DNA of 64,000 nt from an uncultured Acidobacteriota bacterium (GTDB taxonomy: Bacteria > Acidobacteriota > Thermoanaerobaculia > UBA5066 > Gp7-AA6). How positions within the stretch are numbered: the stretch's first letter is position 1; every line of letters begins with the position of its first letter. Positions 43,715 through 61,493 of the stretch are shown here, piece after piece. The DNA is taken from assembly GCA_963811425.1 (NCBI GenBank), contig CAWERV010000009.1, positions 115,698 to 179,697 on the forward strand. The letters are read 5' to 3'. The translations under genes were made by a program, and so were the position numbers. The notes beneath the pieces were generated by a model, which saw nothing but the letters and a program-made list of their open reading frames with translations, searched no databases and was not told where the DNA came from.

Positions 43715-43725
43715 CCGAACAGGCC

Positions 43726-43817
43726 GTCATCCCGAGGAGCAGAGTGACGAGGGACCCCGAACGCGACACGCGACCCCATCGATCCGGCACGGGATCCCTC
43801 GCTTCGCTCGGGATGAC
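43726..43817. repeat. Palindromic repeat family B, full copy (92 bp, 11-bp perfect terminal inverted repeats)
   Basis: GTCATCCCGAG...CTCGGGATGAC with inner GAGGGACCCC/GGGATCCCTC arms. Confidence 0.75.
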
Positions 43818-45930
43818 GCGCAATCCGCTCGGGGTCAAAACCTTCGCCTTCATTCTTTCGACAGGGTTGGCGGGTGTCGCGCTCGCCGGCGACCCAGCAC
43901 CGCCTGTTCCGCAAAAGGTGCCCCACATGCAAACGCTGCACGACGAGACCTTGAAGGACGACTACTTCTGGATGCGCGAGAAGGACAACCCGAAAGTCCG
44001 CGCATTCCTCGAAGCCGAGAACGCGTACACGGAAGCGTTCATGAAGCCGACCGAGGCGTTCCAGAAGGCGCTCTACGACGAGATGCTCGGCCGGATCAAG
44101 GAAACGGATCTCTCGGTCCCCTACCGCGACGGCGGCTGGTTCTACTACTCGCGCACCCAGAAGGGCGAGCAGTACCCGATCCATTGCCGCAAGAAGGCCA
44201 GCCTCGAAGCGCCCGAAGACGTCTACCTCGACCTCAACGCCCTCGCGAAGGGCGAGAAGTTCATGTCGGTCGCGGTGCGCGACGTCAGCGACGACGGGAA
44301 CCTGCTCGCCTACACGACCGACAACACGGGATTTCGCGACTACACGCTGCGCATCAAGGACCTGGCGACGGGCAAGCTCTTCCCGGAACAGGTCGCGCGC
44401 GCGGGCTCGGTGGCCTGGGCGGCCGACAACAAGACACTCTTCTACACGGTCACCGACCCGGCCAAGCGCCCGTACCGGCTCTACCGCCACACGCTCGGCA
44501 GCGACCCTTCGACCGATGTCCTCCTCTATGAGGAGAAGGACGAGATGTTCCGGGTCTTCGCCGGCCGCTCGCGCAGCAAGGCCATCCTCTTCGTCGGCGT
44601 CGCCTCACACACCTCGAGCGAGTGGCGCTGGCTCGCGGCCGACCAGCCGACGGCGGCCCTGCGCCTGATCAGTGCCCGCGAGAAGGACCACGAGTACGAC
44701 GTGGACCACCGCGGCGACCTCTTCTACATCCGCTCGAACAAGGGTTGCCGAAATTTCCGGGTCGTCACCGCACCCGTCGCCGACCCGGGACAGGGCAACT
44801 GGAAAGAGATGCTCCCCTGCCGCAGCGACGTGATGGTCGAGGACATCAACGTCTTCGCCGACTACGGCGTCTTCTCCGAACGCGAGGACGGACTGCCGCG
44901 GCTGCGCGTCACGGACTTGAAGTCGGGCGGCTCGTACCGCGTCGATTTCCCGGAGGCGATCTACTCGACCTACATCTCGAACAACTTCGAGTTCGCGACG
45001 AAAGAGCTGCGCTTCAACTACGAGTCGTTCACGACGCCGCCTTCGGTCTACGACTTCGACATGGCCACTCGGGAGCGCAAGCTCCTGAAGAAGCGTGAAG
45101 TCCTCGGCGGCTACGATTCTTCGAGCTACGCCTCCGAGCGCCGCTACGCCACGGCCGCCGACGGCTCGCGCGTTCCGATCTCGCTGGTCTACCGCAAGGG
45201 CTTCGTCGCCGACGGCAAGGCCCCGATGCTCCTGACGGCCTACGGCTCCTACGGCGCGCCGTCGGAGGCGGAATTCAACTCCAACCGCGTCAGCCTGCTC
45301 GACCGGGGCGTCGTCTATGCGGTCGGGCACATCCGCGGCGGCGGGGACCTCGGCAAGGCGTGGCACGACCAGGGACGGATGATGTCGAAGAAGAACACCT
45401 TCACCGACTTCATCGCCGTGGCCGAGGCGCTGATCGCGGACCGGTACACGTCGAAGGAGCGCCTCGTGATCGAGGGCGGCTCGGCCGGAGGCCTGCTCAT
45501 GGGCGCCGTGACGAACATGCGGCCGGACATCTTCCATGCCGTCATCGCACGCGTGCCCTTCGTGGACGTCATCAACTCGATGCTCGACGAGTCGCTTCCC
45601 CTGACGGTCGGCGAGTTCGAGGAGTGGGGCAACCCGAAGATCAAGGAGCAGTACGCCTACATGAAGTCGTACAGCCCGTACGACAACCTCGAGGCGAAGG
45701 CCTATCCGGCCATGCTGGTCAAGACCTCCTTCGACGACTCGCAGGTCATGTACTGGGAGCCCGCCAAGTACGTGGCCAAGCTGCGGACCCTGAAGACCGA
45801 CAAGAACCCGCTCCTCTTCAAGATCAACATGGCCGGCGGCCACGGCGGATCCTCGGGGCGGTACGACCGCTTGAAGGAGACAGCGTTCGACTACGCGTTC
45901 CTGTTCCGGGAAGTGGGGATTGCGAAGTAG
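43813..45930 (+). CDS. ptrB: Oligopeptidase B (S9A), secreted; start either ATG 43813 or GTG 43711
   Basis: DDYFWMR, YGSYG, HIRGGG, KKNTFTDFI, GGSAGGLL (Ser), DSQVMYWEPAK (Asp), GHGG (His). Confidence 0.92.
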   Translation: MTRNPLGVKTFAFILSTGLAGVALAGDPAPPVPQKVPHMQTLHDETLKDDYFWMREKDNPKVRAFLEAENAYTEAFMKPTEAFQKALYDEMLGRIKETDLSVPYRDGGWFYYSRTQKGEQYPIHCRKKASLEAPEDVYLDLNALAKGEKFMSVAVRDVSDDGNLLAYTTDNTGFRDYTLRIKDLATGKLFPEQVARAGSVAWAADNKTLFYTVTDPAKRPYRLYRHTLGSDPSTDVLLYEEKDEMFRVFAGRSRSKAILFVGVASHTSSEWRWLAADQPTAALRLISAREKDHEYDVDHRGDLFYIRSNKGCRNFRVVTAPVADPGQGNWKEMLPCRSDVMVEDINVFADYGVFSEREDGLPRLRVTDLKSGGSYRVDFPEAIYSTYISNNFEFATKELRFNYESFTTPPSVYDFDMATRERKLLKKREVLGGYDSSSYASERRYATAADGSRVPISLVYRKGFVADGKAPMLLTAYGSYGAPSEAEFNSNRVSLLDRGVVYAVGHIRGGGDLGKAWHDQGRMMSKKNTFTDFIAVAEALIADRYTSKERLVIEGGSAGGLLMGAVTNMRPDIFHAVIARVPFVDVINSMLDESLPLTVGEFEEWGNPKIKEQYAYMKSYSPYDNLEAKAYPAMLVKTSFDDSQVMYWEPAKYVAKLRTLKTDKNPLLFKINMAGGHGGSSGRYDRLKETAFDYAFLFREVGIAK

Positions 45931-47307
45931 CCGGTCGCGGGTCTTCGCGATCGGTGTCGTCGGGGCGGCCCTTGTGGCCGCTCAGCGGTCCCTCCCCTAC
46001 GCCGCCGGGAACGAGCTGCCCGTCTCCGAGTTCCGCGCGCGCCGCGCGGACGCGATGGCGCGGATGCCGGACGGAATCCTCCTCGTCCCCTCGCGCGCGT
46101 TCGGCTTCCACACGGACCAGGATTACCTCGCCAGCTTCCAGCAGAGCCCGAACTTCTTCTACTTCACCGGCCTTCCGAGCGCGGCCGGCGCGGTGCTCGC
46201 GATCGACGGCGCGGCGAAGGAAACCTGGCTCTTCGTTCCGACGAAGCTGCCCGGCATCGCAGGGATGCTGAAGATCCTCCTCGTCGAGCCCGGAGAGGCG
46301 TCGGCAAAGCGGCTCGCGATCGACCACGTCGTCGACCGCAAGGAGCTCCCCGCATTTCTCGCGCGGCGCGAGGAGGCGAAGCCGGGACTCCTTCTCTATG
46401 CCCCCGGCGCGAAGGACGGCCACGCCTTCCCGCTCGACATCGCGCTCGACGATCCCGCGGCCGCCTGGAACCACGCCCTCGGCGAGATCTGGACGCCCGC
46501 GAAGCATCCGCGACGCCGAGCCCGATCCTCTCCTCGATGCGCCTCGTGAAGAGCCCGGCCGAGATCGAGGTCCTGCGCCGCGTCGGCAGGTCGAGCGCGG
46601 CGGCCCTCGACGCCGGCCTGAAATCCCTCGCGCCGGGAATCCCGCAGCGCCAGGCCGAGGCCGCGGTCGTGTCGGGCTGCATCGCCGCCGGCGCCGAGGG
46701 GCCGTCGTTCTGGCCGTGGGTGATGACGGGCGAGAACAGCGCCTTCCCCGCTCCCTTTCAATCGCTCGGCGACTACCGGCACCTGAACCGCGTCATGAAG
46801 GCGGGCGAGGTCGCGCGCGTGGACGTCGGCTGCGACATGGACCACTACAAGGGCGACGTCGGACGCACGGCCCCGGTCTCCGGCCGCTTCGACGCCGGAC
46901 AGCGCGAGACCTGGGAGCTGCTCGTCGCCGCGTACCGCGCCGGGCTCGCGACCTTCCGCGACGGCGTCACGCGCGACGCCGTCTTCGCCGCCTGCCTGGC
47001 CGAGGTCCGCCGCCGCCAGCCGTCGCTCACGACGCCGCTCGGCAAGAAGGCCGCCGAGGTCCTTCTCGGCAAAGACGGCCTCGTGTGGTGGGAGATCCAC
47101 GGCGTCGGCCTCGACTCGGCCGAATGGATGCCCGAGACCCTCAAGACCGGGATGACCGTCGATTTCGAGCCCATCTTCTCGGTCGAGGGCCAGGGCTTCT
47201 ACCTCGAGGACATGATTCTCATCACCCCGACGGGCTACGAGATCCTGACTCCGGGGCTTCCCTACTCGGCCGACGAGATCGAGCGCGCCTCCGGCGCCCG
47301 GAAATAG
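45920..47307 (+). CDS. Secreted M24 (Xaa-Pro aminopeptidase-like) peptidase, frameshift near 46500-46540
   Basis: N-domain F.QSPNFFYFTG; C-domain RLVKSPAEI, VDVG, GDVGRT, HGVGL, FEP, LEDMILIT. Start uncertain. Confidence 0.8.
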
Positions 47308-47317
47308 GCGTCCGAGG

Positions 47318-49014
47318 CTAGCCGCCCTTGCGGGCGCCCGGACCGCGGAGCGCGCGGCCGGCTCTGGCGCCCGTGGGCTCCCCGTCCCGGAGCACGTGGA
47401 CGCCGTTGACGAAGACGTCGCGCACGCCCACCGAGTACTGCTGCGGCCGCTCGTACGTCGCCCGGTCCCCGATCGTCGCGGGATCGAACACGACGACGTC
47501 GGCGAACATCCCGGGCTGGAGCAGGCCGCGCCGATCGAGTCCCAGGTTCGACGCCGGCAGCCCGGAGAGCTTGCGAACGGCCTCGGCGAGAGAGAGGAGC
47601 TTCTCGTCGCGCACGTACTTGCCGAGCACGCGGGCGAAGTTGCCGTACGCGCGCGGGTGCGGCGACGACTTCAGGAAGACGCCCTCGGGGGCCTGCGAGT
47701 CCGCGTCCGAGCCGAACGACACCCAGGGCAGGCGTGATCTCCTTCTTCACGTTGTCCTCGGACATCAGGAAGAAGAGGGCGCCCACCGTCGCATTCGACT
47801 CGACGACCAGATCGATCGCGACGTCCACCGGGTCCTTGCCGCGCTCTTTGGCGATGTCGGCGAGGGTCTTCCCCTGCAGGGGCTTCATGGCCTCGGGACC
47901 GACGGCGGCGACGAGGACCCGGGACGGCGAGCCCGTCAGGAGGCAGATGTTCTCCCAGCCATCGCCCGGCCGGCGCATCTCTCCCGCGATCTTTGCCCGC
48001 GCCTCCGGGTCCTTCAAGCGGCCGATCATCGCGTCGTTGCCGCCGTCGTGCGCCCAGGGCGGCACGCACGCGTCGAGGCTCGTTCCGCCCGCGGTGTACA
48101 GGTACATGTTGGCCGAGATCTTTCAACCCCTGGCGGCGCGCCTCTTCGACCCGGGCGATGACCTTGTCCATCTTCGGCCAGTTGGCCTCGCCCGCGGCCT
48201 TCAGGTGGTAGATCTCGGCCGGCAGACCGGCCTCGCGGCTGATCCGGATGAGCTCGTCCACCGCCTCCAGGAGTCCGTCCGCCTCGCTGCGCATGTGCGA
48301 GATGTACTTGCCCTGGTATTTCGCCGCGACCTTGCAGAGCTCGATCAGCTCCTCGGTCGTCGCGTAGTTGCCGGGGGCATAGATCAGCGCGGACCCGATG
48401 CCGAGGGCCCCGGCCTCCATCTCCCGGCGGACGAGCTCGCGCATCGTGTCGAGCTCCTCCGGGGTCGGCGCGCGCTTGTCGAAGCCGACGGTGTACGCCC
48501 GGAGCGTCGTGGCGCCGATGTACGAGGCCACGTTCTGGGAGATGCCCCGCTTCTCGAGGAATGCCAGGTACTCGGCGAGCGTCGTCCAGGGCATCTCGTA
48601 GTGAAAGTCGGTCTGCTGGGACTCGAGGAACTTCCGGAGGCGCTCGTTCAGCGGCCCCATCGAAAAGCCTTCCCCGAAGATCTGCGTCGTGATGCCCTGG
48701 CGCAGCTCGCTCTGGGAACGCCCGTCGACGATCAGGGACTCGGTCGACCACGAGAGCATGTTGACGAAGCCGGGAGCGACGGCCATGCCCTTCGCGTCGA
48801 CGACGCGCGCGGCAGCGGCCTTCGAGAGATCGCCGACCGCCGCGACCTTGTCGCCGCGGATCCCGACGTCGGCCACGCGGCCCGGGCTTCCCGTGCCGTC
48901 GTAGACCGTGCCGCCGCGGATCACGACGTCGAACGGCGCTTCCCCGGCGCGCAGCGCCACGGCCGCGAAGAGAACGGCGGCGAGGACGGCGGCCCGCGCG
49001 CCGAGCCGCCGCAT
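47318..49014 (-). CDS. Secreted N-acyl-D-amino-acid deacylase-like amidohydrolase (frameshifts near 48125 and 47735)
   Basis: FDVVIRGGTVYDGTG, APGF, YISHMRSE, EIYHLK, FGSD, HPRAYGNFARVLG, ADVVVFDP, VFVNG; N-terminal signal peptide. Confidence 0.85.
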
Positions 49015-51011
49015 CAGTACGTGGGCCCGATGTGGAGCAGGTTGCCTGCCAGGATCAGCCAGCTCATGCCGAGGCAGGCCAGCGCGATCAGCGTCTCGCC
49101 GAGTTTGCTCCAGATCCCGCGGACGCGGCTGCCCCACGCGCGGACGGCGTTGACGAGCGCCACCAGGGTTCCGATGAGCGTCAGCACCGCGAGGCCCTGG
49201 AACAGGTGCAGCCAGGGATCGCTCTTCGGGGTCAGCAGGTTCAGGTCCTCGAGGCCCTTGACGATGAGGATCCCGTACCCGGCGATCATCGTCACCTGAG
49301 CCAGGCACGCCAGGCGAGTCCAGAGGCGAAGCCGCCGCTCCCCGGGCGGCAGATCGAGCCGCCGGCCGTAGTGCCGGCGAACGAGCCCGCCCACGGGCCA
49401 GAGGATCAGCGCGAGCACGACGAAGCAGAGGCTGACGATCGCCACCGGGAGGATCAGCTTCGCGTCGAGGTACGCCGGCGGCCGGAAGAAGTCGAAGAAC
49501 GGATACTCGGTCACCAGCTCCTCGCGCCCGAGCGGATCCTTCTGAAAGACGACCTTCTCCTGGCCGTGCACGACGCGGAAGACGCCGTTGCCGATCGGCT
49601 CGAACGATTTCGGCTTCCCGTTGTAGCCGGTCAGCGCCGAGATCTCGACCGCGCCCTCGTCGGTCGGTGACGGATACACCTTGGTCTGCTCGAGCAGGTA
49701 GAGCAGCCGGAGGAACTTGCTGTCCGAGCGGCGGCTCACCAGGTAGTTGCCCGCGACTTTCCGTGCCTGTTCTTTCGCGTCGGCGACGCGCGGAGCGGCG
49801 GGCGGAGTCCAGGGGAAGTAGCGGTCGAGGAATTGCTCCCACAGGAGCGTGCGTCCGCTCCCTTTGCCGTTGCCGCCGCTGTTGTAGGAAACGAAGAATC
49901 CGACGTTCGCGTCGGGAATCAGGTGCAGATCGCTGTGGAACCAGTTGGTGTCGCCGCCGTGTCCGATGATCCGGTGCCCGTTGCGCGACTCCTCGTAGAA
50001 GCCGAGCGCCATCCCGTCGGTCTGGTCGGACTTGCCGCGCTGGCGCGCGTGCATGAGCTTCGCCGTCTCCGGCGACAGGATCCGCGCGCCTTCGTAGCTC
50101 CCGTCCTGCAGGTGCGCGAGCATGAAGCGCGCCATCGCGTCGGCGGACGCCGACAGCGCGCCGGCCGGCGCCGGGACGACGATCTCGAACGGCTTCGCCT
50201 TCTCCGAGGCGATCTTGTAACCCTTCGACATGTCGGGCTCGAGCGCCGCCGGCAGCGGCTGCTGGAAGCTCGCCTGCTTCATGCCGAGGGGTCCGAGGAT
50301 GAACTCCTCGACGTAGTTCGCGAAGGGCTTGCCGGAGACGCGCTCGACGATGTAGCCGGCCACGGCGGTCGCGTAGTTGGAGTAGGCGGGCGTCGAACCC
50401 GGCGGGAAGATGCGCTGCGGCTGGTGCGTCTTCAAGTGATCGCCCAGCGGCACGAGCATCTTCGGGTCGCCGACGATCAGGTCCTTGGCGTAGTCCTCGT
50501 AGCCCGGGGTATGCGTCATGATGTCGCGCAGCGTGATCGGCTTGCCGAACGCCTCGGGCACCTTGAAGTCGATGTACGTGTTGACGTCCTTGTCGAGGTC
50601 GAGCTTGCCCTGCTCGACCAGCTGCATGACCGCGGTCCAGGTGAAGAGCTTCGAGATCGAGCCGGGCCGGAAGAGCGTCGTCTTCCAGTCGACGGGGACG
50701 CGCTTCTCGACGTCGGCGAAACCGTAGCCCTTGCCGAAGAGGATCTTGCCGTCCTTGACGACGACGACGACGGCCCCCGCGATGTCGGCGGGCCCGAGCT
50801 GGGCGGGGACGAGGCCGTCGAGGAATGCCTCGACGTCCCCGGCCGTCATCGCCGGGGTGGACGAGCTCGCGGCGGCCGGCGGCGGCGCGCTGGACGCCGG
50901 CGCGGGCGAGGGCGGCGCGGCACCCGCGAACCCGGGTGCCAGCAGGGCGAGGACGGCCGCGAGCGCCGCTCTGCCGGCGCGCGCGCGAATCCCTTCAGAA
51001 CGCTTTCTCAT
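49014..51011 (-). CDS. Serine hydrolase (class C beta-lactamase / D-peptidase family) with C-terminal TM anchor
   Basis: Signal peptide, GSISK (SxxK), YSN, HGG, about four hydrophobic C-terminal helices. Confidence 0.9.
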   Translation of the reverse strand: MRKRSEGIRARAGRAALAAVLALLAPGFAGAAPPSPAPASSAPPPAAASSSTPAMTAGDVEAFLDGLVPAQLGPADIAGAVVVVVKDGKILFGKGYGFADVEKRVPVDWKTTLFRPGSISKLFTWTAVMQLVEQGKLDLDKDVNTYIDFKVPEAFGKPITLRDIMTHTPGYEDYAKDLIVGDPKMLVPLGDHLKTHQPQRIFPPGSTPAYSNYATAVAGYIVERVSGKPFANYVEEFILGPLGMKQASFQQPLPAALEPDMSKGYKIASEKAKPFEIVVPAPAGALSASADAMARFMLAHLQDGSYEGARILSPETAKLMHARQRGKSDQTDGMALGFYEESRNGHRIIGHGGDTNWFHSDLHLIPDANVGFFVSYNSGGNGKGSGRTLLWEQFLDRYFPWTPPAAPRVADAKEQARKVAGNYLVSRRSDSKFLRLLYLLEQTKVYPSPTDEGAVEISALTGYNGKPKSFEPIGNGVFRVVHGQEKVVFQKDPLGREELVTEYPFFDFFRPPAYLDAKLILPVAIVSLCFVVLALILWPVGGLVRRHYGRRLDLPPGERRLRLWTRLACLAQVTMIAGYGILIVKGLEDLNLLTPKSDPWLHLFQGLAVLTLIGTLVALVNAVRAWGSRVRGIWSKLGETLIALACLGMSWLILAGNLLHIGPTY

Positions 51012-51058
51012 CGATTCCTACCTCCCGCTCGCCCGCGGACGAGCGCGTTCCGTGAAGT

Positions 51059-53759
51059 CTACAGATCCAGCCTCAGGCCGAACTGGATCTGGCGCGGCCC
51101 GAACGCCCCGGCTGCGGTCCGCGTCGGCTGCGCGAAGTTCGGAGCCGTGAGGTTGCCGACGTAGCCCGTCGGGTTGACGTGGTTGAACAGGTTGAACGCC
51201 TCGACGATCAGCTGCAGGTTCATCCCACCGATCGGGATCTGCTCGGCCACCCGGAGGTTGACCGTCCAGAGGTCCTCGCCACGCTTCGAATTGCGCTCGA
51301 CCCCCGGCGGCCGGTCGTTGGGGCTGAAGGGGTTCACGCCCGAAATGACGTTGTAGGGCGGCGCCGACATGAAGTTCACGGTCCCGCCCAGCATGAGGCC
51401 GAAGGGGCCCTTCCAGTCGGCGCCGACGTTCAGCGTGTTGCGGATGTCGTTCGAGCTCGGGCCGTAGTCCTTGTCGGGGCTGTAGGCGTCGCTGATGAAG
51501 TACTGGTGGCCGTCGGTGTTGTCCTTCGAGGAAGCCAGCGTGTAGGCGAGCTGAACTCCGAGGTTCTGGCCGAAGCGCTTCTGAATCCCGACCTGCGCCG
51601 CGTAGTACTTGGACTTGCCCCCCGTCGTGGGGTCGTAGGCGACACCGACGTTCGGATCGGGCAACGTGGGCACGCCGTCGACGAGGATGGGCTGGTTGGC
51701 GTTGCGAAGGTAGAGGAGGTGATAGCCGCGCGCGTAGACCAGGTCGAGGCTCGCGGCGAGGTCGGGCGCCAGCTCCTGCTGGACGCCGAGGCTCCCGACG
51801 TTCTTGTACGGGGTCGTGTTGTTGCCGTTGAGCACCGAGACGTTCGGCGGCAGCGGGTAGGCCGAGCCACCCGAGCTGGGATCCGGGTAGCCGGGAACGA
51901 GGGTCGCCTGGATGTTGAACCGACCCGGCTCGAAGAGCGGAGGCGATGAGCGGCGCGTTCATCATGACCTGGTCGTAGTAGATGCCGAACCCGCCTCGAA
52001 TCGAGGTCTTTCCCTGACAGGTCGGATCCCAGGCGAAGTGGATGCGAGGACCGAAGTTCTGCCAGTCGTGCTTGGTGTAGATCTGGTCCTCGTAGTCCCA
52101 GCGCAGTCCCACGTTCAGCGTCAGGTTCCGAAGAACCTGCCACTGGTCCTGGACGAACAGGGCGACGATGTTGTTCGAGAGTTTGACGTAGGGATTGCCG
52201 GAGCCCTGGACGTAGACCAGGGGGTGCGTGAGCGGGTCGTCCGGGTTGTAGGGATCGTTGCTGATGAACTGAAAGAAGCCGTCGAAGTACTGCGGCACGT
52301 ACGCGTCGACGTCGATGTGGTTGTAGTCCACGCCGGCCTTGATCGAGTGTTCCCCGTTCGCTGCCGAGCGTGAGACTCACCGAATCCAGGAACTCGTACC
52401 GCTTTTCCTTTGCGGTCTGAGGCTGGTTGGGGAGCTTGCCCGAGAACAGCGAAGGCCGCTGAATCCCCGCGCAGCCCGGGCAATTCGGGATGAAGTCGTT
52501 GGACTGGTCGGAATACTGGAAGCGAGCCTCGTTCAACGCCATCGGCGAGATGATCCAGGAGTGCTGGAGCCCATAGTCGTAGTTCTGGGTGTCGAGCGTG
52601 GAGCCGGCCTGCGAGGTCACGATGGCCCCGCCCCCGGCGTCCAGGCCGACGTCGGAGTTCGTGGTCTTCGGGTTGTCCACGCGGAAGCGGAACGTCAGCG
52701 TCTGGCTGTCGGTGGGGTGAAAGTCGAGCTTGAGCACGGCGCGCGGCTCACGCAGATCCTGCGGGACGGCCGTCTCGACCGGCAGGCCGAGCGCCGCGAG
52801 GGTGGCCGGGCTCACGGCCACGACGGCGGTCGCGTCGCGCCAGGTCTGCTCGAAGGAGGCGAAGTAGAAGAGCTTGTCCTTCGCGATCGGCCCGCCCAGG
52901 AAGGCGCTGGCGATCCACTGGTTGAAGGTCGTCTGCTCCTTCTCGTGGGTCTCGGGATTCGTCTGGGCAAAGGCATCGCTCGCCGCCAGGGCATTGGGAC
53001 GGTAGTAGCCGGAGAGCCGCGCGTGGAGGTCGTTGGCTCCCGAGCGGGTGAGCACGTTGATGATCGCCCCCGAGGCCTGACCGTACTGGGCGTCGTACTG
53101 GCTCGAGAGGACCTCGAACTCGCCGATCGCGTCGGGCGAGTAGTCGCCGCGTGTTCCGCCGCGGATGCCCTCGTCGTTGCTCATGCCGTCGATCAGGTAC
53201 GTGTTGCTGGCCCCGTTGCTTCCCGCGGCCGAGATGGTCGACCCCTCCCCCGTGGAGTTGGTCGTGATCCCGGGCGTCAGGAGGATGAGGTTCTGGAAGT
53301 TGCGCTCCGAGAGCGGCAGCTCGTCGATCTGGCGGGTCGTGATGTTCGCCCCGATCGCGCTCTTGCTCGTGTCGATGATGGGCGCCTCGGCCTGCGACGG
53401 TCACCGTCTCGGCGACCTTCGCGACCTTCAGCCGGAAGTCGAGCGCGGCCCGCTGGCCGATCTGGAGGTTGATGCCCGACCGCACCTCCGTCGCGAAACC
53501 TCCGGCGGTCACGGTCACCTCGTAGCTTCCGACCGGCAGCTCGACCATCCGAAAGAGACCCGCCGCGTCGGTGCGTCACCGACCGCGTCTGGCTCGTCGC
53601 GACGTTCTTCGCCGCGACCGTGGCGCCCGAGAGCGGCCGGCCCGACTCGTCCGACACGCTGCCGTACACCGTGCCACCGACCGTCTGCGCCAGCGCCGCC
53701 GACGCCAGCAGTAACGCGGCTGCCGCCGCGGCCCAGGTTCTCGACGAGAATCGAATCAT
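51059..53759 (-). CDS. TonB-dependent receptor (Oar-like with carboxypeptidase-regulatory-like N-domain), several frameshifts
   Basis: Signal peptide, G.V.D.SG..L.GATV, LPVGSYEVTV, LPLSERNFQNL plug, AQYGQASGAIIN, FVQDQW, LNVGLRWDY, C-terminal PRQIQFGLRLDL. Confidence 0.85.
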
Positions 53760-53824
53760 GAGATCTCCTCCCCCGCCCGGGCGGCCTCGCTGCCGCCGCC
53801 GGGGCGCCACCCAATAATGGGCGG

Positions 53825-53853
53825 AGAATGCATCATTCGTTGCCAGCTGTCAA
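53825..53853 (-). promoter_or_regulatory. Sigma70-type promoter of the TonB receptor block
   Basis: Perfect TTGACA (53853-53848), 17-nt spacer, CATTCT (53830-53825). Confidence 0.6.
53829..53844. promoter_or_regulatory. Palindromic operator candidate (TGCAAC-N4-GTTGCA consensus), receptor-proximal
   Basis: TGCATC-ATTC-GTTGCC, overlapping the spacer and -10. Confidence 0.6.
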
Positions 53854-53921
53854 TACGCTGACGGAAGCTAATAAACGCCGCATTCATGCCAGCCCGGATG
53901 CGCACTGTCGCGAGGGGTCTG

Positions 53922-53937
53922 CGCATCATGTATTGCA
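53922..53937. promoter_or_regulatory. Palindromic operator candidate, receptor-distal
   Basis: CGCATC-ATGT-ATTGCA, 93 bp from the proximal site. Confidence 0.55.
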
Positions 53938-53965
53938 TGGCCGCCCGGTCGGGACGGCGCGGGGC

Positions 53966-54736
53966 TCAGCGCTCGAAGACGTACAGGGCGGTCTCCCGGC
54001 GCGCCACCAGGCCGACGGCCTCGTAACCGCGGTCGAAGAGCGCCTCCGCGGTGCGGCGCAACGTCGCGCGCGCGCGGCGGGCCGCGGCCGGGTCGGCCGC
54101 ATAGAGCGCGGGGCCTCCCGCCGGAATCTCCATCGCGACCCGCCGCGCGGCCGGCAGATGGCGCGGGCTGGCCCGCGGGAGCTCCTCGGCATCGCGGGGC
54201 TCGGGCGCGATTCCCCGCGCGGCCCGTTCGACCTCGGGCCGATCGAGATCCCAGTGCACCTCGAACCGATCGGTCGGCAGCCCGCCATAGAGGCCTCCCG
54301 AGCTCGCCGTACACGTTCGGCAGGAACGTGCGTGGCGCGCGCCCGCAGACGCACGAGGTTCAAGCGCGCGTTGCGCACGAGCAGCGGGTCGTAGGTCCAC
54401 GTGACGCGCCGGATCCCCCGCGCGAGGCACCAGGCTCGCTGAAAGAACTTGAGGCGGACGGAGACGCCGCGGCCCCGGAACTTCGGCCGCACCGCCAGCA
54501 GGTGGGAGTGATGGCAGGGCTTTCCGAGATTGGTCCGCGCCAGTCCGTGGACGAAGCCCACGAGCTTGCCTCCGAGGAAAGGCGCCCGCGGTCATTCCTC
54601 CCACGTGGCCGACCACCTGCAGGTCGAAGGTCGACGGCAACTGCCGGTCTTCGAAGCCCCAGACCTGCCGCGCGACGGTCTGCGCCGCGGCGAACTCCGA
54701 GAGCCCGGAGAGCTCGCGAACGACCAGGCGGCTCAC
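53966..54736 (-). CDS. GNAT N-acyl(succinyl)transferase of the NSAR-associated type (frameshifts near 54580 and 54320)
   Basis: VWGFED, LVGFVHG, HHSHLLAVRP.FRGRGV..RLKFFQR, VTWTYDPL..RNARLNL.RL, GGLPTDRFEVHW; GTGA overlap with M20. Confidence 0.8.
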   Translation of the reverse strand: MSRLVVRELSGLSEFAAAQTVARQVWGFEDRQLPSTFDLQVVGHVGGMTAGAFPRRQARGLRPRTGADQSRKALPSLPPAGGAAEVPGPRRLRPPQVLSASLVPRAGDPARHVDLRPAARAQRALEPRASAGARHARSCRTCTASSGGLYGGLPTDRFEVHWDLDRPEVERAARGIAPEPRDAEELPRASPRHLPAARRVAMEIPAGGPALYAADPAAARRARATLRRTAEALFDRGYEAVGLVARRETALYVFER

Positions 54737-55854
54737 GCGCCCGCCGCCAGCGCCGCGAGCAGCGCCGCCCGCCGGGGCAGATCCGCGAGCGACACGAACT
54801 CTCCGCGCGCGTGGGCATTGCCGCCCATCGGACCGAGCCCGTCGAGCGTCGGGATTCCGGCCGCGGCCGTGAAGTTGCCGTCCGAGGCTCCTCCCACCCG
54901 CGCGGCCCCGAGCTCGAAGCCGAGCTCCGCGGCGACCGCGCGCGCCCGCTCGTAGAGCGCCAGGGAATCCGCCGTCGACTCGAGCGGCGGGCGGTCGACG
55001 CCGCCCTCGATCTCGACGACCACCCGGGAATCCGCGGGCCGGTAGCCGCGAACCGCCCGCTCGACGCGCTGCGCCTCCTCGACCGACCACACGCGGACGT
55101 CGACGGACAGTTCCCCGTATTCCGGAATCACGTTGGTCTTGTCGCCGCTCTTCGCCACCGTCGCGGCCACCGTGGTCTCCCGGGACCGGTCGGCCAGGGA
55201 CTCCAGGAACAGCACGCAGCGCGCGAGCTCCGCCAGCGCCGACGCCCCGCGGTCGGGGTCGAGACCCGCGTGCGCGGCGCGGCCGCGAAATCGGAGCCGG
55301 AGGAGCCCATGGCCCTTGCGCGCGATCTTGGCGGCGCCGTCGAGCGACGGCTCGACGACGAGGACGCTGCGATGGCGGCCCGCCAGCTCGAGCGTGAGCG
55401 CCCGGGAAGCGCCGCTGCCGATCTCCTCGTCCGGGACGAGGAGCAGCGTCGCCTCTCCGGCCCGCTCCTTCGCGAGCTCCGCCATGGCGTCCATGGCGAC
55501 GGCGATGCCCGCCTTCATGTCGAAGACGCCCGGCCCCGAAGCCCGGTCGCCTTCGACCCGGTACGGGAACTCGTCGAGCGTATTCCGGGCCCAGACCGTG
55601 TCGAGGTGCCCGAGGATCAGGACGCCGCCCGCGCCGCTTCCCGCACCGGCGACCAGGGCGTCGCCGCGTCCCGGGCACGGGCGAGTCTCGGCCGCGACAC
55701 CCCGTTCGCGCAGGCGATCGCGGATCCAGAGGGCCAGGGAGGAAACACACGCGGCATCCTCCGACGGGCTCTCCAGGCCGACGAGGGACGCGAGGTCCGC
55801 CGCGAGCCGCTCTCTGCGCCCTTCGAAGCGCGACAGCCAGTCCCGCGGCTTCAT
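54733..55854 (-). CDS. M20 metallopeptidase / desuccinylase (carboxypeptidase G2-like), cytoplasmic
   Basis: GHLDTV, GVFDMKAG, PDEEIGS, VVEP, GGASDGN, GGNAH; no signal peptide. Confidence 0.9.
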   Translation of the reverse strand: MKPRDWLSRFEGRRERLAADLASLVGLESPSEDAACVSSLALWIRDRLRERGVAAETRPCPGRGDALVAGAGSGAGGVLILGHLDTVWARNTLDEFPYRVEGDRASGPGVFDMKAGIAVAMDAMAELAKERAGEATLLLVPDEEIGSGASRALTLELAGRHRSVLVVEPSLDGAAKIARKGHGLLRLRFRGRAAHAGLDPDRGASALAELARCVLFLESLADRSRETTVAATVAKSGDKTNVIPEYGELSVDVRVWSVEEAQRVERAVRGYRPADSRVVVEIEGGVDRPPLESTADSLALYERARAVAAELGFELGAARVGGASDGNFTAAAGIPTLDGLGPMGGNAHARGEFVSLADLPRRAALLAALAAGA

Positions 55855-55855
55855 C

Positions 55856-56767
55856 TCACCGCTTCCGCGTTCCCTTCTCCGTGGGGGCGGCCTCGTCGGC
55901 GGGCGCCTGGGCGTACCAGCGGGACCCGGAGAGGTACTCCTTCTCGGTCTGTCGCAGGAGGGCGAGGGACCGCTTCGGCTTCAGCTGCGCGCACGCCACG
56001 AGGACCGCGTTCAGGACGGCCATCGGCGCGGCGTACGAGCCCGTGAAGGTCGACGCGGAAATCGGGGCCAGCAGATATGCGTCGCAGCAGCGGGCGATCG
56101 GCGTCGTGTCGCTGTCCGTGATGCCGAAGGTCGAGACCCCGCGGGCCTTCGCCTCGTTGGCCGCGTCGATCGTCACCCGGAGACACCGCCCGAAGCTGAT
56201 CGCGACGACCAGGTCGCGCTTGTCGAGCGTTCGCACCTTGTGCTGCAGGTTGCCGGCGCTGCCGACCGGCGCCTCCGCCTGGAAGCCCAGCGCCTCGAGC
56301 CCGTAGGAAAAGAACCACGCGAGCGAGGCCGCGAGGTCCACGCCGACGACCAGGACGGAACGGGCCCGATGGATGCGGCGCGCGAGGTCCACGGCCCGCA
56401 GGGGGTCCAGGCCCGAGCGGACCGCGTCGAGATTGTGGAGGTCCCTCTCGAGGCTGTGCCGCACGTGGTCGGCCACGCTGCGCTTCTCCCGGGCCGTCGC
56501 CTCCAGGATCCGGTACGGCGTCATTCGCTGGATGAAGTGCTCCCGCAGGTCCTTCAGGAAGTCGGCGTACTGGCGATAGCCGAGCGCCTGGATCGTCCGC
56601 ACGATCGTGGCGGGATCGACGCGGTACCGGCGCGCGAGCGCGCGCGAGGAAAGGAAGAAGGTCTCGTCGGGGTTCTCGAGCGCGGCCTGGATGATGCGGC
56701 GACGGCGCGGGTTCAGGCGCGATTGCGCCTCGGCCAGTCGCTGTTCGATCGAGGTGCGTGTCGACAT
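55856..56767 (-). CDS. RpiR/MurR-family transcriptional regulator (HTH + SIS)
   Basis: SSRALA..YRVDPATIVRTIQALGY..Y, SIS domain VVAISFGR, ITDSDTTP. Confidence 0.92.
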   Translation of the reverse strand: MSTRTSIEQRLAEAQSRLNPRRRRIIQAALENPDETFFLSSRALARRYRVDPATIVRTIQALGYRQYADFLKDLREHFIQRMTPYRILEATAREKRSVADHVRHSLERDLHNLDAVRSGLDPLRAVDLARRIHRARSVLVVGVDLAASLAWFFSYGLEALGFQAEAPVGSAGNLQHKVRTLDKRDLVVAISFGRCLRVTIDAANEAKARGVSTFGITDSDTTPIARCCDAYLLAPISASTFTGSYAAPMAVLNAVLVACAQLKPKRSLALLRQTEKEYLSGSRWYAQAPADEAAPTEKGTRKR

Positions 56768-56830
56768 GCGGGTCCCTCCACCAAGACCCCGGCAGGCGCG
56801 GTCGCCCGCTCCCGGGGCCCGGGTAGAATC

Positions 56831-58004
56831 TCACGACACCGAAACCGTCTTCCTCTCGCAGCGTGAATCGCTCGACGGTCTCGGTCTTTGCGGCCACGTA
56901 GTCCCGATCGATCTCGAACCCCAGGCCGACCCCGCGCGGCACCTCCACGGTCCCGTCCGCGCTCACCTCCACCTCCGGCGCGATGATGTCGCGGGCGAAG
57001 TAGCGGCGGCTGGCCGAGATGTCGCCCGGCAGCGTGAAGCCCGGCAGGCTCGCCAGCGCGATGTTGTGCGCGCGCCCGATCCCCGACTCCAGCATGCCGC
57101 CGCACCACACCGGCACGCCGCGCGACCGGCACAGGTCGTGGATCGCGAGGGCCTGCGAGTAGCCGCCGACCCGGCCCACCTTCAGGTTGACGATGTCGCA
57201 ACATCCGCGATCCAGGGCCTGCCGCGCCGCGCGGGCCGAGCCGATGCTCTCGTCGAGGCAGATGGGAGTCGTCAATCCCCGGCGCAGCTCGGCGTGATCC
57301 AGGAGGTCGTCGTGCTCGAGCGGCTGCTCGATCATCAGGAGGTCGAAGGCGTCGAGCTGTTTCAGGTGCGCCCGATCCGCCAGGGTGTAGGCCGCGTTGG
57401 CATCCACGGACAGCAGGATGTCGGGATGGTGACGCCGCACCTCCCGGACGACCTCGACGTCCCATCCCGGCTTGATCTTCAGCTTGATCCTCCGATAGCC
57501 GAGACGAACGAACTTCTCGATGCGTTCGAGCAGCCCGGAAATCTCGGCCTGGATCCCGAGGCTCACGCCGGCCTGCACCCGGGGCTGGACGCCTCCGAGA
57601 AGGCTCGCGATGGATTCACCCCTCGCCCTCGCGATCAGGTCGACGTAGGAGAGCTCCAGGCCGGCGCGGGCCATCGGGTGGCCCCGGAAGGGCGCGAGCC
57701 GATCCGCGAGCTCGGACAGGCCCGAGAGCGGCGCCTGCAGGACCGCGGGCGCGAAGTAGTCGCGCACGACGTGCAGGGCCGTCCCGACCGTTTCGTAGCT
57801 GTAGAGGGGTTCCTCGCCGGCGACGATCTCTCCCCACCCCTCGAGACCCTCCGCCTCCATCTTCACGAGAACGATCAGGCGCGACCGCACCCGGCCGAAG
57901 CTCGTCTCGAAGGGCTCGACGAGATCCAGGCGAAGAAGCCGGAGCTCGATCGCCTCGATCCGGAGGGGCGCGCTCGTCAGCGGCGCCGCGTACGGAGGGC
58001 TCAA
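56831..58004 (-). CDS. menC: o-succinylbenzoate synthase / N-succinylamino-acid racemase (enolase superfamily, NSAR/OSBS type); 1-nt frameshift near the 3' end
   Basis: PFETSFG, KLKIKPG (KxK), DAN, EQPL, LDES, NLKVGRVGG, WCGGMLES, GDISAS. TTG start approximate; probable true end ...RKTVSVS* at 56831. Confidence 0.9.
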
Positions 58005-58064
58005 TCGGACCGTCCGATCGGAGCGCGGCGCCGTTGCCCGCGGGCTCTCCCGTCTTCGACGTCG

Positions 58065-58080
58065 AACAACATTTGTTGCC
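58065..58080. promoter_or_regulatory. Palindromic operator candidate, NSAR-proximal
   Basis: AACAAC-ATTT-GTTGCC immediately downstream of the -10 box. Confidence 0.55.
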
Positions 58081-58082
58081 GC

Positions 58083-58112
58083 AAAGTACCAGAGCGCCGC
58101 GCGAAGCGTCAA
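58083..58112 (-). promoter_or_regulatory. Sigma70-type promoter of the NSAR-RpiR-M20-GNAT block
   Basis: TTGACG (58112-58107), 18-nt spacer, extended -10 TGgTACTTT (hexamer 58088-58083). Confidence 0.6.
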
Positions 58113-58158
58113 GAAGGCACCAGCCATGGGCCAATCCCAACGGGCCCGAAAGGCTCGC

Positions 58159-58174
58159 TGCATCATGTGTTGCA
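58159..58174. promoter_or_regulatory. Palindromic operator candidate, NSAR-distal
   Basis: TGCATC-ATGT-GTTGCA (11/12 to consensus), 94 bp from the proximal site. Confidence 0.6.
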
Positions 58175-58912
58175 ATGAGGCGGTCGGCGCGCCGGTATAG
58201 GCTTTGCGCCAACGTGGCGCTCGCGGCCGGTTCCGTTGATAAAAATGTATATAGGAATAGATAGTATTTATTATTATTAAGAAGAAGAATTATGGTTGAA
58301 GAAATTATATAGTGAAAGTAAAGATGATAATGTGCGATCAGGTGACGAGGAGAGCTCCAGGCCGGCGCGGCCATCGGGTGGCCCCGGAAGGGCGCGAGCC
58401 GATCCGCGAGCTCGGACAGGCCCGAGAGCGGCGCCTGCAGGACCGCGGGCGCGAAGTAGTCGCGCACGACGTGCAGGGCCGTCCCGACTGTTTCGTAGCT
58501 ATATAAGGGTTCCTCGCCGGCGACGATCTCTCCCCACCCCTCGAGACCCTCCGCCTCCATCTTCACGAGAACGATCAGGCGCGACCGCACCCGGCCGAAG
58601 CTCGTCTCGAAGGGCTCGACGAGGTCCAGGCGGAGAAGCCGGAGCTCGATCGCCTCGATCCGGAGGGGCGCGCTCGTCAGCGGCGCCGCGTAGGGAGGGC
58701 TCAATCGGACCGTCCGATCGGAGCGCGGCGCCGTTGCCCGCGGGCTCTCCCGTCTTCGACGTCAAACAACATTTGTTGCCGCAAAGTACCAGAGCGCCGC
58801 GCGAAGCGTCAAGAAGGTACCAGCATGGGCCAATCCCAACGGGCCTGAAAGGCTCGCTGCATCATCTGTTGCAATGAGGCGGTCGGCGCGCCGGTATAGG
58901 CTTTGCGCCAAC

Positions 58913-61489
<2,577 letters not shown>

Positions 61490-61493
<4 letters not shown>

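What the first reader, a model, noticed from the sequence alone, without database searches (positions are those of the whole stretch)
47318..58174. Candidate regulated D-amino-acid / D-peptide utilisation locus: TonB receptor plus periplasmic D-specific hydrolases plus a cytoplasmic NSAR D-to-L pathway
Seen: seven co-oriented minus-strand genes, NSAR/OSBS > RpiR > M20 > GNAT > TonB receptor > SxxK serine hydrolase > D-aminoacylase-like, with overlaps or short gaps except for one 206-bp promoter gap. The receptor, serine hydrolase and deacylase have signal peptides; NSAR, M20 and GNAT do not. Established: the GNAT succinyltransferase + N-succinylamino-acid racemase + M20 L-desuccinylase trio converts D- to L-amino acids irreversibly (characterised in Geobacillus kaustophilus). 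SxxK hydrolases include D-peptidases, and RpiR/MurR regulators often control cell-wall-derived catabolism. Inference: a PUL-like system imports D-residue-containing peptides (peptidoglycan fragments or non-ribosomal peptides), trims and deacylates them in the periplasm, and racemises them in the cytoplasm. The compartment split would explain how a D-deacylase can coexist with a D-acylating pathway. I know of no description of this pathway coupled to an outer-membrane receptor and a dedicated regulon.
Basis: partly seen in the sequence, partly recalled or inferred. Interest (0 to 1): 0.85.

Follow-up and report, generated by a model that had tools for sequence, protein, structure and literature searches.

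The report
Regulated D-amino-acid scavenging gene cluster

Summary
The seven minus-strand genes are present in the stated order and belong to the stated families. As assembled, only RpiR, M20 and the S12 hydrolase are intact ORFs. The enolase, GNAT, TonB receptor and deacylase carry ten single-base insertions relative to close relatives. These are most likely long-read assembly errors, but reads could not be checked.

The functional link is well supported:
- The block is collinear in about 19 species of one Thermoanaerobaculia clade.
- Both promoters (upstream of the enolase and of the receptor) carry two copies, about 92 bp apart, of one palindrome, TGCAAY-N4-GWTGCA. It occurs nowhere else in the 4.4-Mb genome.
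- Orthologues of the S12 hydrolase in other acidobacterial families sit in reshuffled loci with the same families: RpiR, NSAR-type enolase, TonB receptor, deacylase, sometimes GNAT, M20 or an amino-acid permease. The palindrome is found in six of the seven loci that hold an RpiR orthologue and in none of the six that lack one.
- The genome lacks MenD and MenB and has the futalosine family, so the enolase is not needed as OSBS.

Substrates remain inferred. The deacylase lacks three canonical D-aminoacylase metal ligands.

Verdict: a real, co-regulated new variant of a known pathway, probably for salvage of D-amino acids or D-peptides.

The parts
58158..58174 (-). Operator site A of the enolase promoter (TGCAACACATGATGCAG)
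   Evidence: Conserved in 16 of 17 species. PWM score 29 bits, among the six top hits in the genome.
58106..58113 (-). Conserved -35-like element CTTGACGC of the enolase promoter
   Evidence: Invariant TTGAC in the alignment of 16 species, followed 17 nt later by a TAC/TAG-type hexamer. Not picked up by the consensus scan.
58064..58080 (-). Operator site B of the enolase promoter (GGCAACAAATGTTGTTC), just downstream of the putative -10
   Evidence: Lies 94 bp from site A.
56831..58004 (-). NSAR/OSBS-subfamily enolase. One inserted base at 56856 removes the natural stop at 56833-56831.
   Evidence: MR_MLE_N and MR_MLE_C domains. TIGR01928 scores 340 bits against a cut-off of 201. 49-50% identical to the Thermus and Deinococcus N-acylamino acid racemases, E about 1e-110. 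Insertion shown.
55856..56767 (-). MurR/RpiR-family regulator (HTH_6 + SIS), intact
   Evidence: Orthologues of 54-60% identity lie in the related modules of other families.
54733..55854 (-). M20 metallohydrolase (candidate N-succinyl-L-amino-acid desuccinylase), intact
   Evidence: Peptidase_M20 and M20_dimer domains. Nearest solved structure is carboxypeptidase G2, E 1e-40.
53966..54736 (-). GNAT acyltransferase of the COG3375-like family. Three inserted bases (54582, 54335, 54300). GTG start overlaps the M20 stop by 4 nt.
   Evidence: The intact orthologue is 255 aa and hits Acetyltransf_1. Family members lie next to NSAR-type enolases in several phyla.
53921..53937 (-). Operator site A of the receptor promoter (TGCAATACATGATGCGC)
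   Evidence: Conserved in 18 of 18 species. 24 bits.
53847..53854 (-). Conserved -35 element (ATTGACAG) of the receptor promoter
   Evidence: TTGAC is invariant in 17 species.
53828..53844 (-). Operator site B of the receptor promoter (GGCAACGAATGATGCAT), overlapping the spacer and -10 region
   Evidence: Conserved in 18 of 18 species. 28 bits. Lies 93 bp from site A.
51059..53759 (-). TonB-dependent receptor (CarboxypepD_reg + Plug + barrel). Four inserted bases (53573, 53395, 52359, 51936).
   Evidence: Pfam hits on the intact orthologue. Frame changes mapped against intact orthologues.
49014..51011 (-). S12 beta-lactamase-fold serine hydrolase with a signal peptide and four C-terminal hydrophobic helices, intact
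   Evidence: Beta-lactamase domain, E 3e-61. Motifs SISK at 118, YSN at 210 and HGG at 351. Helices. Among the PDB matches, Pab87 (second best, E 1e-31) is D-stereospecific in experiments; alkaline D-peptidase (E 1e-17) and R61 are more distant matches; the best match is IS11.
47318..49014 (-). Exported D-aminoacylase-like amidohydrolase. Two inserted bases (48123, 47733). ATG overlaps the S12 stop.
   Evidence: Amidohydro_3 domain. E 1e-86 to the Alcaligenes D-aminoacylase and 1e-72 to an N-acyl-D-Glu deacylase. Ligand comparison.

Best explanation
The locus is one regulatory unit made of two operons. P1 drives the NSAR-type enolase, the RpiR regulator, M20 and GNAT. P2 drives the TonB-dependent receptor, the membrane-anchored S12 hydrolase and the exported D-aminoacylase-like hydrolase.

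Each promoter has a pair of 14-16-bp palindromes (TGCAAY-N4-GWTGCA) about 92 bp apart. One lies upstream of the -35 and the other on or next to the -10. This fits repression by the locus-encoded RpiR tetramer, possibly with DNA looping.

Proposed flow:
1. The receptor imports D-amino-acid-containing peptides or N-acyl-D-amino acids from dead microbial biomass (peptidoglycan stem peptides, non-ribosomal peptides).
2. S12 and the deacylase cut them to free D-amino acids in the periplasm.
3. A permease carries these across the inner membrane. It is not encoded here, but an APC-family permease sits in related loci.
4. In the cytoplasm the GNAT N-succinylates the D-amino acid, the enolase racemises the N-succinyl amino acid, and M20 hydrolyses only the L-form. 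The net result is an irreversible D-to-L conversion.

Shown: gene families, gene order, conserved and reshuffled neighbourhoods, the shared genome-unique operator, and absence of the men pathway.
Inferred: compartments (signal peptides read by eye), all substrate specificities, RpiR as the operator-binding protein, and its ligand.

The ten frameshifts are most likely assembly errors, so the organism probably has intact genes.
For: - Families.
- NSAR features: KxK, the Asp/Glu/Asp metal ligands, and the Lys-x-x-Arg motif equivalent to K263/R266 (role of R266 from bioRxiv 10.1101/2022.03.03.481873 and PMC12006748).
- Menaquinone route: no MenD over cut-off in G000 or in 60 of 61 related genomes, no MenB, and an MqnA-family gene present.
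- Synteny: the seven-gene block is collinear in about 19 species-level genomes. The S12 orthologue occurs only in genomes that hold the block.
- Operators: pairs conserved in 17-18 species at both promoters while the surrounding intergenic DNA varies. The six top PWM hits in 4.41 Mb are all at this locus.
- Wider module: S12 orthologues of at least 50% identity in 9 genomes of 5 other acidobacterial families, plus 3 metagenome loci, sit with RpiR (54-60% identity), NSAR-type enolase (48-68%), receptor, deacylase (40-47%), GNAT (30-33%), M20 or an amino-acid permease, in different gene orders. Six loci around S12 homologues of only 39-46% identity mostly lack these neighbours.
- Motif and regulator: the operator recurs in 6 of 7 loci with an RpiR orthologue and in 0 of 6 without one.
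- Precedent: Pab87, an S12 D-peptidase, lies next to a D-aminoacylase and a peptide transporter (PMC2651629).
Against: - No enzyme or transporter here has been assayed.
- The deacylase has Leu and Trp in place of the HxH motif and Glu in place of Cys96 of the Alcaligenes enzyme, so its chemistry or substrate may differ.
- In the references read here, RpiR/MurR regulators sense sugar derivatives, not amino acids (PMC9537276; wider family knowledge from memory).
- This locus has no inner-membrane transporter.
- Characterised NSARs prefer hydrophobic N-succinyl amino acids (PMC12006748), which fits peptidoglycan D-Ala and D-Glu less well.
- The GNAT has no NCBIfam or PDB match, and its orthology to the Geobacillus succinyltransferase was not tested.
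- Several module variants lack GNAT or M20 in the locus.
- Four genes are frame-broken in this assembly, and the reads could not be inspected.
Confidence: 0.6

Rival explanations
1. The substrate is a sugar-derived N-acyl compound rather than peptides. The locus would work like the ong cluster for oxidised chitin, where a TonB receptor, a MurR/RpiR repressor and a D-aminoacylase homologue (OngB) handle N-acetyl-D-glucosaminic acid. The enolase, GNAT and M20 genes would then process a sugar amino acid or a related N-acyl metabolite.
For: The ong cluster combines a TonB receptor, a MurR/RpiR repressor and a D-aminoacylase-family deacetylase (PMC9537276). PpOngB is a PDB match of the deacylase at E 2e-60. 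A SIS-domain regulator fits a sugar-type ligand. The deacylase active site differs from that of true D-aminoacylases.
Against: The locus has no GH20 hexosaminidase, no OngC-type deaminase, no KDG kinase and no SSS transporter. The deacylase is closer to the Alcaligenes D-aminoacylase (1e-86) than to OngB (2e-60), and it is exported, whereas OngB acts in the cytoplasm. The constant partner across families is an S12 peptidase-type hydrolase, and related loci carry an amino-acid permease.
Confidence: 0.12
2. The same enzymes serve recycling or remodelling of the cell's own peptidoglycan, not feeding on outside material.
For: S12 is related to AmpH, R61 and Pab87-type DD-peptidases. MurR-type regulators control cell-wall sugar recycling (from memory). 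An Amidase_3 gene lies beside the Terriglobales variant.
Against: A TonB-dependent receptor at the head of the operon points to uptake from outside. The block is accessory: about 27 of 36 genomes of the same genus lack it, including nearly complete ones. No MurNAc or anhydro-muropeptide genes lie in the locus.
Confidence: 0.12
3. The locus is a decaying pseudogene cluster in this strain, and the ten frameshifts are real.
For: Four of seven genes are broken. The flanking M24 peptidase and Ser/Thr kinase genes are broken too. No insertion falls in RpiR, M20 or S12, which has about a 1% chance if the insertions were placed at random.
Against: All ten changes are +1 insertions; there are no deletions and no nonsense codons. 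Amino-acid identity to orthologues stays high in every frame piece. The assembly has at least 234 frameshift candidates clustered in patches, and its relatives are long-read MAGs. The closest relatives, L035 and L036, are intact.
Confidence: 0.15
4. Two unrelated modules (the NSAR trio and a receptor/hydrolase operon) merely lie side by side through shared ancestry, or the enolase is simply the OSBS of menaquinone synthesis.
For: Other Thermoanaerobaculia carry the trio alone. NCBIfam would name the enolase o-succinylbenzoate synthase.
Against: Both promoters share a genome-unique operator. The same families recur together in different orders in distant families. MenD and MenB are absent and the futalosine family is present.
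Confidence: 0.03

Closest known systems
[quoted passage not shown] 2006, as summarised in bioRxiv 10.1101/2022.03.03.481873 and PMC12006748)
   Same: The same three families lie in one operon. The enolase belongs to the NSAR/OSBS subfamily and has the catalytic lysines and the R266 equivalent. The organism does not need OSBS.
   Different: Here the trio is fused to an RpiR regulator, a TonB receptor and two exported hydrolases under a shared operator. The enolase is a different lineage from the one in the plain trio of sister families. Orthology of the GNAT to the Geobacillus enzyme was not tested.
Pyrococcus abyssi Pab87 neighbourhood (S12 CubicO D-peptidase + D-aminoacylase PAB0090 + dipeptide ABC transporter; PMC2651629)
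   Same: An S12 D-peptidase-type enzyme is paired with a D-aminoacylase-type enzyme and an uptake system. Pab87 is the second-best PDB match of the S12 protein. The proposed role is feeding on D-peptide debris from bacterial walls.
   Different: Pab87 is a cytoplasmic octamer with a lipocalin domain and lies beside an ABC importer. Here S12 is membrane-anchored and periplasmic, uptake is by a TonB receptor, and a racemisation pathway and a regulator are attached.
ong cluster for oxidised chitin in Pseudoalteromonas (PMC9537276)
   Same: It combines a TonB receptor, a MurR/RpiR repressor and a D-aminoacylase-family deacylase, transcribed as several units under one repressor.
   Different: The ong substrate is N-acetyl-D-glucosaminic acid. 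Its other genes (GH20, deaminase, RidA, KDG kinase, SSS transporter) are absent here. It has no S12, enolase, GNAT or M20.
Bacteroidota polysaccharide utilisation loci (SusC/SusD)
   Same: The logic is the same: an outer-membrane TonB transporter, periplasmic or surface hydrolases and a dedicated regulator in one locus.
   Different: There is no SusD-like lipoprotein, the receptor is of the CarboxypepD_reg type, and the presumed substrate is peptide or amino acid, not glycan.

Membership tests
NSAR/OSBS subfamily of the enolase superfamily | MR_MLE N- and C-terminal domains, and a score above the subfamily model's cut-off | tested here: met
   PF02746 and PF13378. TIGR01928 scores 339.9 bits against a cut-off of 200.65.
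NSAR/OSBS subfamily of the enolase superfamily | Catalytic KxK and second Lys, Asp/Glu/Asp metal ligands, and an Arg three residues after the second Lys (R266 equivalent) | tested here: met
   KLKIK at 174, DANAAY at 201, IEQPL at 225, CLDES at 249 and KVGR at 275. All align with the Thermus and Deinococcus racemases.
NSAR/OSBS subfamily of the enolase superfamily | NSAR rather than OSBS as the biological role (no need for OSBS; context with pathway genes) | tested here: met
   MenD and MenB are absent and the MqnA family is present. GNAT and M20 lie in the same operon. Enzyme activity itself cannot be tested with these tools.
Geobacillus-type D-to-L conversion pathway | GNAT that N-succinylates D-amino acids | not testable with these tools
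   Membership of the GNAT fold family is met (PF00583). There is no NCBIfam or PDB match. Members of the same GNAT family lie next to NSAR-type enolases in Chloroflexota and other phyla. Orthology to the Geobacillus enzyme was not tested because the Sakai paper is not held.
Geobacillus-type D-to-L conversion pathway | M20 hydrolase specific for N-succinyl-L-amino acids | not testable with these tools
   The M20 family with its dimerisation domain is met. The nearest structure is carboxypeptidase G2.
D-aminoacylase (Alcaligenes faecalis DA1 type) | Homology over the full amidohydrolase fold | tested here: met
   E 1e-86 to 1M7J and 1RJP, in two aligned stretches covering most of the protein.
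D-aminoacylase (Alcaligenes faecalis DA1 type) | Metal ligands His67, His69, Cys96, His220 and His250, and catalytic Asp366 (residue roles recalled from memory; the 1V4Y His220 change and the 1RJQ Asp change are visible) | tested here: not met
   The alignment shows HxH replaced by Leu-x-Trp and Cys96 replaced by Glu. The equivalents of His220, His250 and Asp366 are kept. The same variant occurs in the module deacylases of other families. I file it as D-aminoacylase-like, not as a member.
S12 D-stereospecific peptidases / penicillin-recognising proteins | SxxK, YxN and H/K-x-G motifs | tested here: met
   SISK at 118, YSN at 210 and HGG at 351. Beta-lactamase domain at 3e-61. D-stereospecificity cannot be tested with these tools.
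MurR/RpiR regulators | N-terminal HTH_6 plus a SIS domain, and palindromic operators at the controlled promoters | tested here: met
   Domains. Operator pairs at both promoters, genome-unique, and co-occurring with RpiR orthologues in other families. Binding and the ligand were not tested.
SusC/SusD-type PUL | A SusD-like lipoprotein gene next to the TonB receptor | tested here: not met
   All ORFs between 47318 and 58004 are accounted for by the seven genes. The receptor is followed after 47 nt by the S12 gene.
ong (oxidised chitin) cluster | GH20 OngA, OngC deaminase, KDG kinase and SSS transporter alongside the TonB receptor, RpiR and OngB | tested here: not met
   Only the receptor, RpiR and deacylase families are shared.

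The most novel reading that the evidence does not exclude
Acidobacteriota carry a phylum-wide modular 'D-amino-acid utilisation locus' comparable to a PUL. Its parts are a TonB receptor, a membrane-anchored S12 D-peptidase, a variant D-aminoacylase, an NSAR-type racemase, and sometimes GNAT, M20 or a permease. A dedicated RpiR-family repressor controls it, and that repressor's SIS domain senses an amino-acid-derived ligand such as an N-succinyl amino acid rather than a sugar phosphate. This would give the NSAR pathway its missing physiological role, salvage of D-amino acids from microbial necromass, and would widen the known ligand range of SIS regulators.
Probability: 0.3. Interest if true: 0.75.

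Novelty: new variant of a known kind. Interest (0 to 1): 0.62.

Why it matters
The three-enzyme D-to-L conversion pathway is biochemically established, but in the papers I could read, the source of its D-amino-acid substrates and its regulation are not described. Here the pathway is tied by gene order, by a shared operator and by recurrence across acidobacterial families to an outer-membrane importer and exported hydrolases from D-specific enzyme families.

That gives a concrete hypothesis to test: abundant soil Acidobacteriota harvest D-amino acids from dead cell walls and peptide antibiotics. It also supplies a defined operator and regulator pair for experiments.

D-amino acids are a sizeable, poorly tracked part of soil organic nitrogen (from memory). 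A dedicated uptake and inversion system in a dominant soil phylum would bear on necromass turnover.

Tried and rejected
- The consensus promoter/terminator scan found nothing at the conserved -35 elements. The promoter calls rest on cross-species conservation only.
- Weaker PWM hits elsewhere in the genome: the best (19 bits, C17:372890) lies inside an ECF-sigma-like ORF and was rejected as a regulon member.
- A general association of S12 genes with GNAT-enolase loci outside the clade: only 3 of about 60 loci have one. With roughly 20-30 S12-like candidates per genome in the first look, I estimate this is no more than chance. The link applies to the S12+TM orthologue group, not to S12 genes in general.
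- L049 as an evolutionary intermediate: it has no RpiR and a receptor only 46% identical. The enolase tree nests it inside the clade, so this is a secondary rearrangement.
- OSBS reading: rejected.
- The GNAT gave no PDB or NCBIfam match.
- The Sakai 2006 paper is not held.
- AT-rich islands as a general mark of duplications: only the island at this locus is flanked by a repeat.
- Structure prediction was not run, because family assignments were already clear from sequence.

Full report
**1. What is in the sequence.**
The window is C9:115698-179697 of a 4.41-Mb, 31-contig, roughly 69% G+C genome. Named relatives place it in Acidobacteriota, class Thermoanaerobaculia.

- Enolase (MR_MLE_N and MR_MLE_C domains)
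- RpiR (HTH_6 + SIS)
- M20 (with dimerisation domain)
- GNAT
- TonB-dependent receptor (CarboxypepD_reg, Plug, barrel)
- S12 beta-lactamase-fold hydrolase
- Amidohydro_3 deacylase

Gaps between genes are 63, 1, -4, 206, 47 and -1 nt. The layout is therefore two tightly packed gene groups separated by the 206-bp gap. Read by eye, the receptor, S12 and deacylase start with signal-peptide-like segments and the other three enzymes do not. S12 ends in four hydrophobic helices.

**2. The assembly is damaged here.**
Only RpiR, M20 and S12 are intact ORFs. A GC3 frame plot showed repeated frame switches between 45.9 and 61.5 kb.

- Against the closest short-read relative (89% nucleotide identity) and the closest full-length relative (93%), every break is a single inserted base in the window.
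- The positions are 56856 (enolase, which loses its conserved TGA and runs on as a 774-aa ORF over RpiR); 54582, 54335 and 54300 (GNAT); 53573, 53395, 52359 and 51936 (receptor); 48123 and 47733 (deacylase).
- The flanking M24 peptidase and Ser/Thr kinase genes are broken too.
- Genome-wide, a conservative test finds 234 such events, clustered in patches. Many relatives are long-read MAGs.
- There are ten insertions, no deletions and no nonsense codons, and amino-acid identity stays high in each frame piece. This points to assembly error.
The complete sparing of three genes (about a 1% chance) is unexplained.
- Immediately upstream, a 576-bp direct repeat (97.7% identical) flanks a 113-bp AT-rich filler at 58235-58347. 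It duplicates the enolase promoter and the 5' end of the enolase gene. Relatives lack it.

**3. What the proteins are.**

- *Enolase.* It is 49-50% identical to the Thermus and Deinococcus N-acylamino acid racemases and close to the Amycolatopsis NSAR (E 1e-104 to 1e-110). It passes TIGR01928. It keeps KxK, the metal ligands and the Lys-x-x-Arg motif; that Arg is the R266 position reported to favour NSAR activity (bioRxiv 10.1101/2022.03.03.481873; PMC12006748).
- *Menaquinone route.* MenD is absent from this genome and from 60 of 61 relatives, and MenB is absent. An MqnA-family gene is present, as in the Thermus and Deinococcus controls. By the genome-context argument used in the NSAR papers read here (10.1101/2022.03.03.481873; PMC12006748), OSBS activity is not needed, so NSAR is the expected role.
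- *GNAT.* It belongs to a COG3375-like family with no solved or curated relative. Members of this family lie next to NSAR-type enolases in Acidobacteriota, Chloroflexota, Thermodesulfobacteriota, Aminicenantes and Actinomycetota.
- *M20.* Its nearest structure is carboxypeptidase G2.
- *S12.* It has the SxxK, YxN and HGG motifs. Its PDB matches include Pab87, which is D-stereospecific in experiments, and more distantly the alkaline D-peptidase, R61, ClbP and some esterases.
- *Deacylase.* It matches the Alcaligenes D-aminoacylase at 1e-86 and an N-acyl-D-Glu deacylase at 1e-72. However, HxH is replaced by Leu-x-Trp and the Cys ligand by Glu, while the two His and the Asp are kept. It is D-aminoacylase-like, possibly with a single metal site. 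I do not file it as a member.

**4. Linkage within the clade.**
Among GTDB species representatives, the seven-gene order is collinear in about 19 genomes whose enolase is at least 70% identical to the window's.

- Other Thermoanaerobaculia and Holophagales carry only enolase-M20-GNAT.
- Chloroflexota and some other phyla carry GNAT-enolase.
- Within the genus the block is accessory. The S12 orthologue occurs only in genomes that hold the block or where a contig break hides it, and about 27 of 36 genomes have neither.
- The upstream flank differs between species, but the promoter region is kept.

**5. Shared operator.**
Both intergenic regions were aligned across 17-18 species. In each, two copies of the same palindrome are conserved within otherwise variable sequence.

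- The consensus is TGCAAY-N4-GWTGCA.
- The two copies lie 87-94 bp apart.
- One copy sits upstream of a conserved TTGAC -35 element. The other lies on or just after the presumed -10.

A weight matrix built from these sites finds its six best hits in the whole 4.41-Mb genome at this locus only: two at each promoter and two in the duplicated copy. The next hit is 19 bits and lies inside a gene. The two operons therefore share a regulator that controls nothing else recognisable in this genome. I had found it before reading that note.

**6. The module is older and wider than this clade.**
S12 homologues with the same length and C-terminal membrane domain are common. I examined orthologues of 50-56% identity in three metagenome loci (Terriglobales, Blastocatellia and one unnamed) and in 9 of 300 genomes sampled across the phylum, spanning five families. 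All lie in loci built from the same families in different orders:

- RpiR at 54-60% identity
- NSAR-type enolase at 48-68%
- TonB receptor
- Deacylase at 40-47%, with the same ligand variant
- GNAT of the same family at 30-33%
- M20 at 41%
- A second S12 with DUF3471
- An APC amino-acid permease
- In two cases, an MR_MLE enzyme with a signal peptide

Further points from the same comparison:

- As a control, six loci around S12 homologues of only 39-46% identity mostly lack these neighbours.
- All nine genomes encode both the GNAT and an NSAR-type enolase somewhere. In five the enolase lies inside the module, and in three the GNAT does too.
- The operator motif recurs upstream of the receptor, enolase or RpiR gene in 6 of 7 loci that hold an RpiR orthologue. 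It is absent from all 6 loci that lack one. This ties the motif to this regulator.
- The enolase tree separates the window's clade from the enolase of the plain trio in sister families, which groups with the Thermus and Deinococcus racemases at 100/99 support. The window's enolase is instead 66-68% identical to the module enolases of Blastocatellia and G135.
- The simplest history is that an RpiR-enolase-receptor-S12-deacylase module merged with an M20-GNAT pair in this clade.

**7. Most likely mechanism.**

1. Uptake of D-residue-containing peptides or N-acyl-D-amino acids through the receptor.
2. Periplasmic cleavage by the anchored S12 hydrolase and the deacylase.
3. Import of free D-amino acids. 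No permease is encoded here, but one is in related loci.
4. Cytoplasmic N-succinylation, racemisation and L-specific desuccinylation.

RpiR would repress both promoters until an unknown ligand appears. I put this general function at about 0.6, and the narrower claim of a co-regulated functional unit at about 0.9.

Rivals are a sugar-amino-acid substrate as in the ong cluster (PMC9537276), recycling of the cell's own wall, and true pseudogenisation in this strain. Chance adjacency and an OSBS role are effectively excluded.

**8. Comparison with what is known.**

- The trio is the Geobacillus pathway.
- An S12 D-peptidase beside a D-aminoacylase and a peptide importer was noted for Pab87 (PMC2651629).
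- A TonB receptor with an RpiR repressor and a D-aminoacylase homologue is the core of the ong cluster.
- Full-text searches found no paper joining the NSAR pathway to a TonB receptor, or describing such a locus in Acidobacteria.
- Two earlier reports of this scan describe similar clusters in other acidobacterial genomes. They agree with my comparison but are not independent evidence.

I class the locus as a new variant of a known kind.

**9. Limits.**
No reads, no SignalP and no biochemistry were available. Promoter elements are inferred from conservation only. Orthology of the GNAT to the characterised succinyltransferase was not tested.

Noticed in passing
window 57647-58933: A tandem duplication of about 700 bp. 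Two 576-bp copies (97.7% identical) flank a 113-bp AT-rich filler at 58235-58347. It duplicates both enolase operators, the 5' 330 nt of the enolase gene and the first 60 nt of the kinase gene. Relatives L035 and L036 lack it. It may be an assembly artefact or a real strain-specific event.
   Followed up: partly
window 45900-61500: A patch dense in single-base insertions (at least 15 in 15.6 kb, against about one in the first 44 kb). It also breaks the M24 peptidase and the first Ser/Thr kinase, yet RpiR, M20 and S12 are untouched. Similar patches occur elsewhere in the genome, for example C11:0-90 kb.
   Followed up: partly
window 43711-47307 (+): A prolyl oligopeptidase (S9, 739 aa, intact) and an aminopeptidase P-like M24 with a signal-like N-terminus converge on the locus. 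The M24 adjacency is kept in some relatives (L016, L018) but not in others, so this may be a peptide-catabolism neighbourhood.
   Followed up: partly
window 58874-64000 (+): Two tandem Ser/Thr protein kinase paralogues with long C-terminal regions, divergent from the enolase promoter. The first is frame-broken in at least four places. Copy number and arrangement differ between relatives.
   Followed up: no
L117 10121-11332 and L125 12097-13293: The Terriglobales and G337 variants of the module carry an MR_MLE enolase-superfamily protein only 23% identical to the window's enolase. The L117 copy has a signal-like N-terminus, so it may be a periplasmic epimerase. Each lies beside a second S12 hydrolase with DUF3471.
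   Followed up: partly
L092 (G035) 9062-10431: In one species of the clade, RpiR is followed directly by GNAT, with no M20 gene between them. The genome's best M20 hit is a 43% paralogue elsewhere.
   Followed up: no
G000 C9:52915-52997, C10:315931-316025, C14:21689-21789 and others: Eleven short AT-rich islands (below 30% G+C over 80 nt) occur in a 69% G+C genome. One (C10:315931) lies in a bin dense in frameshift candidates. Their nature is unknown.
   Followed up: partly
L049 61-163 of the GNAT-receptor spacer: A clade member without RpiR in its block still has both operator sites upstream of its more divergent receptor (46% identity). Its regulator must therefore be encoded elsewhere, or have been lost.
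   Followed up: partly
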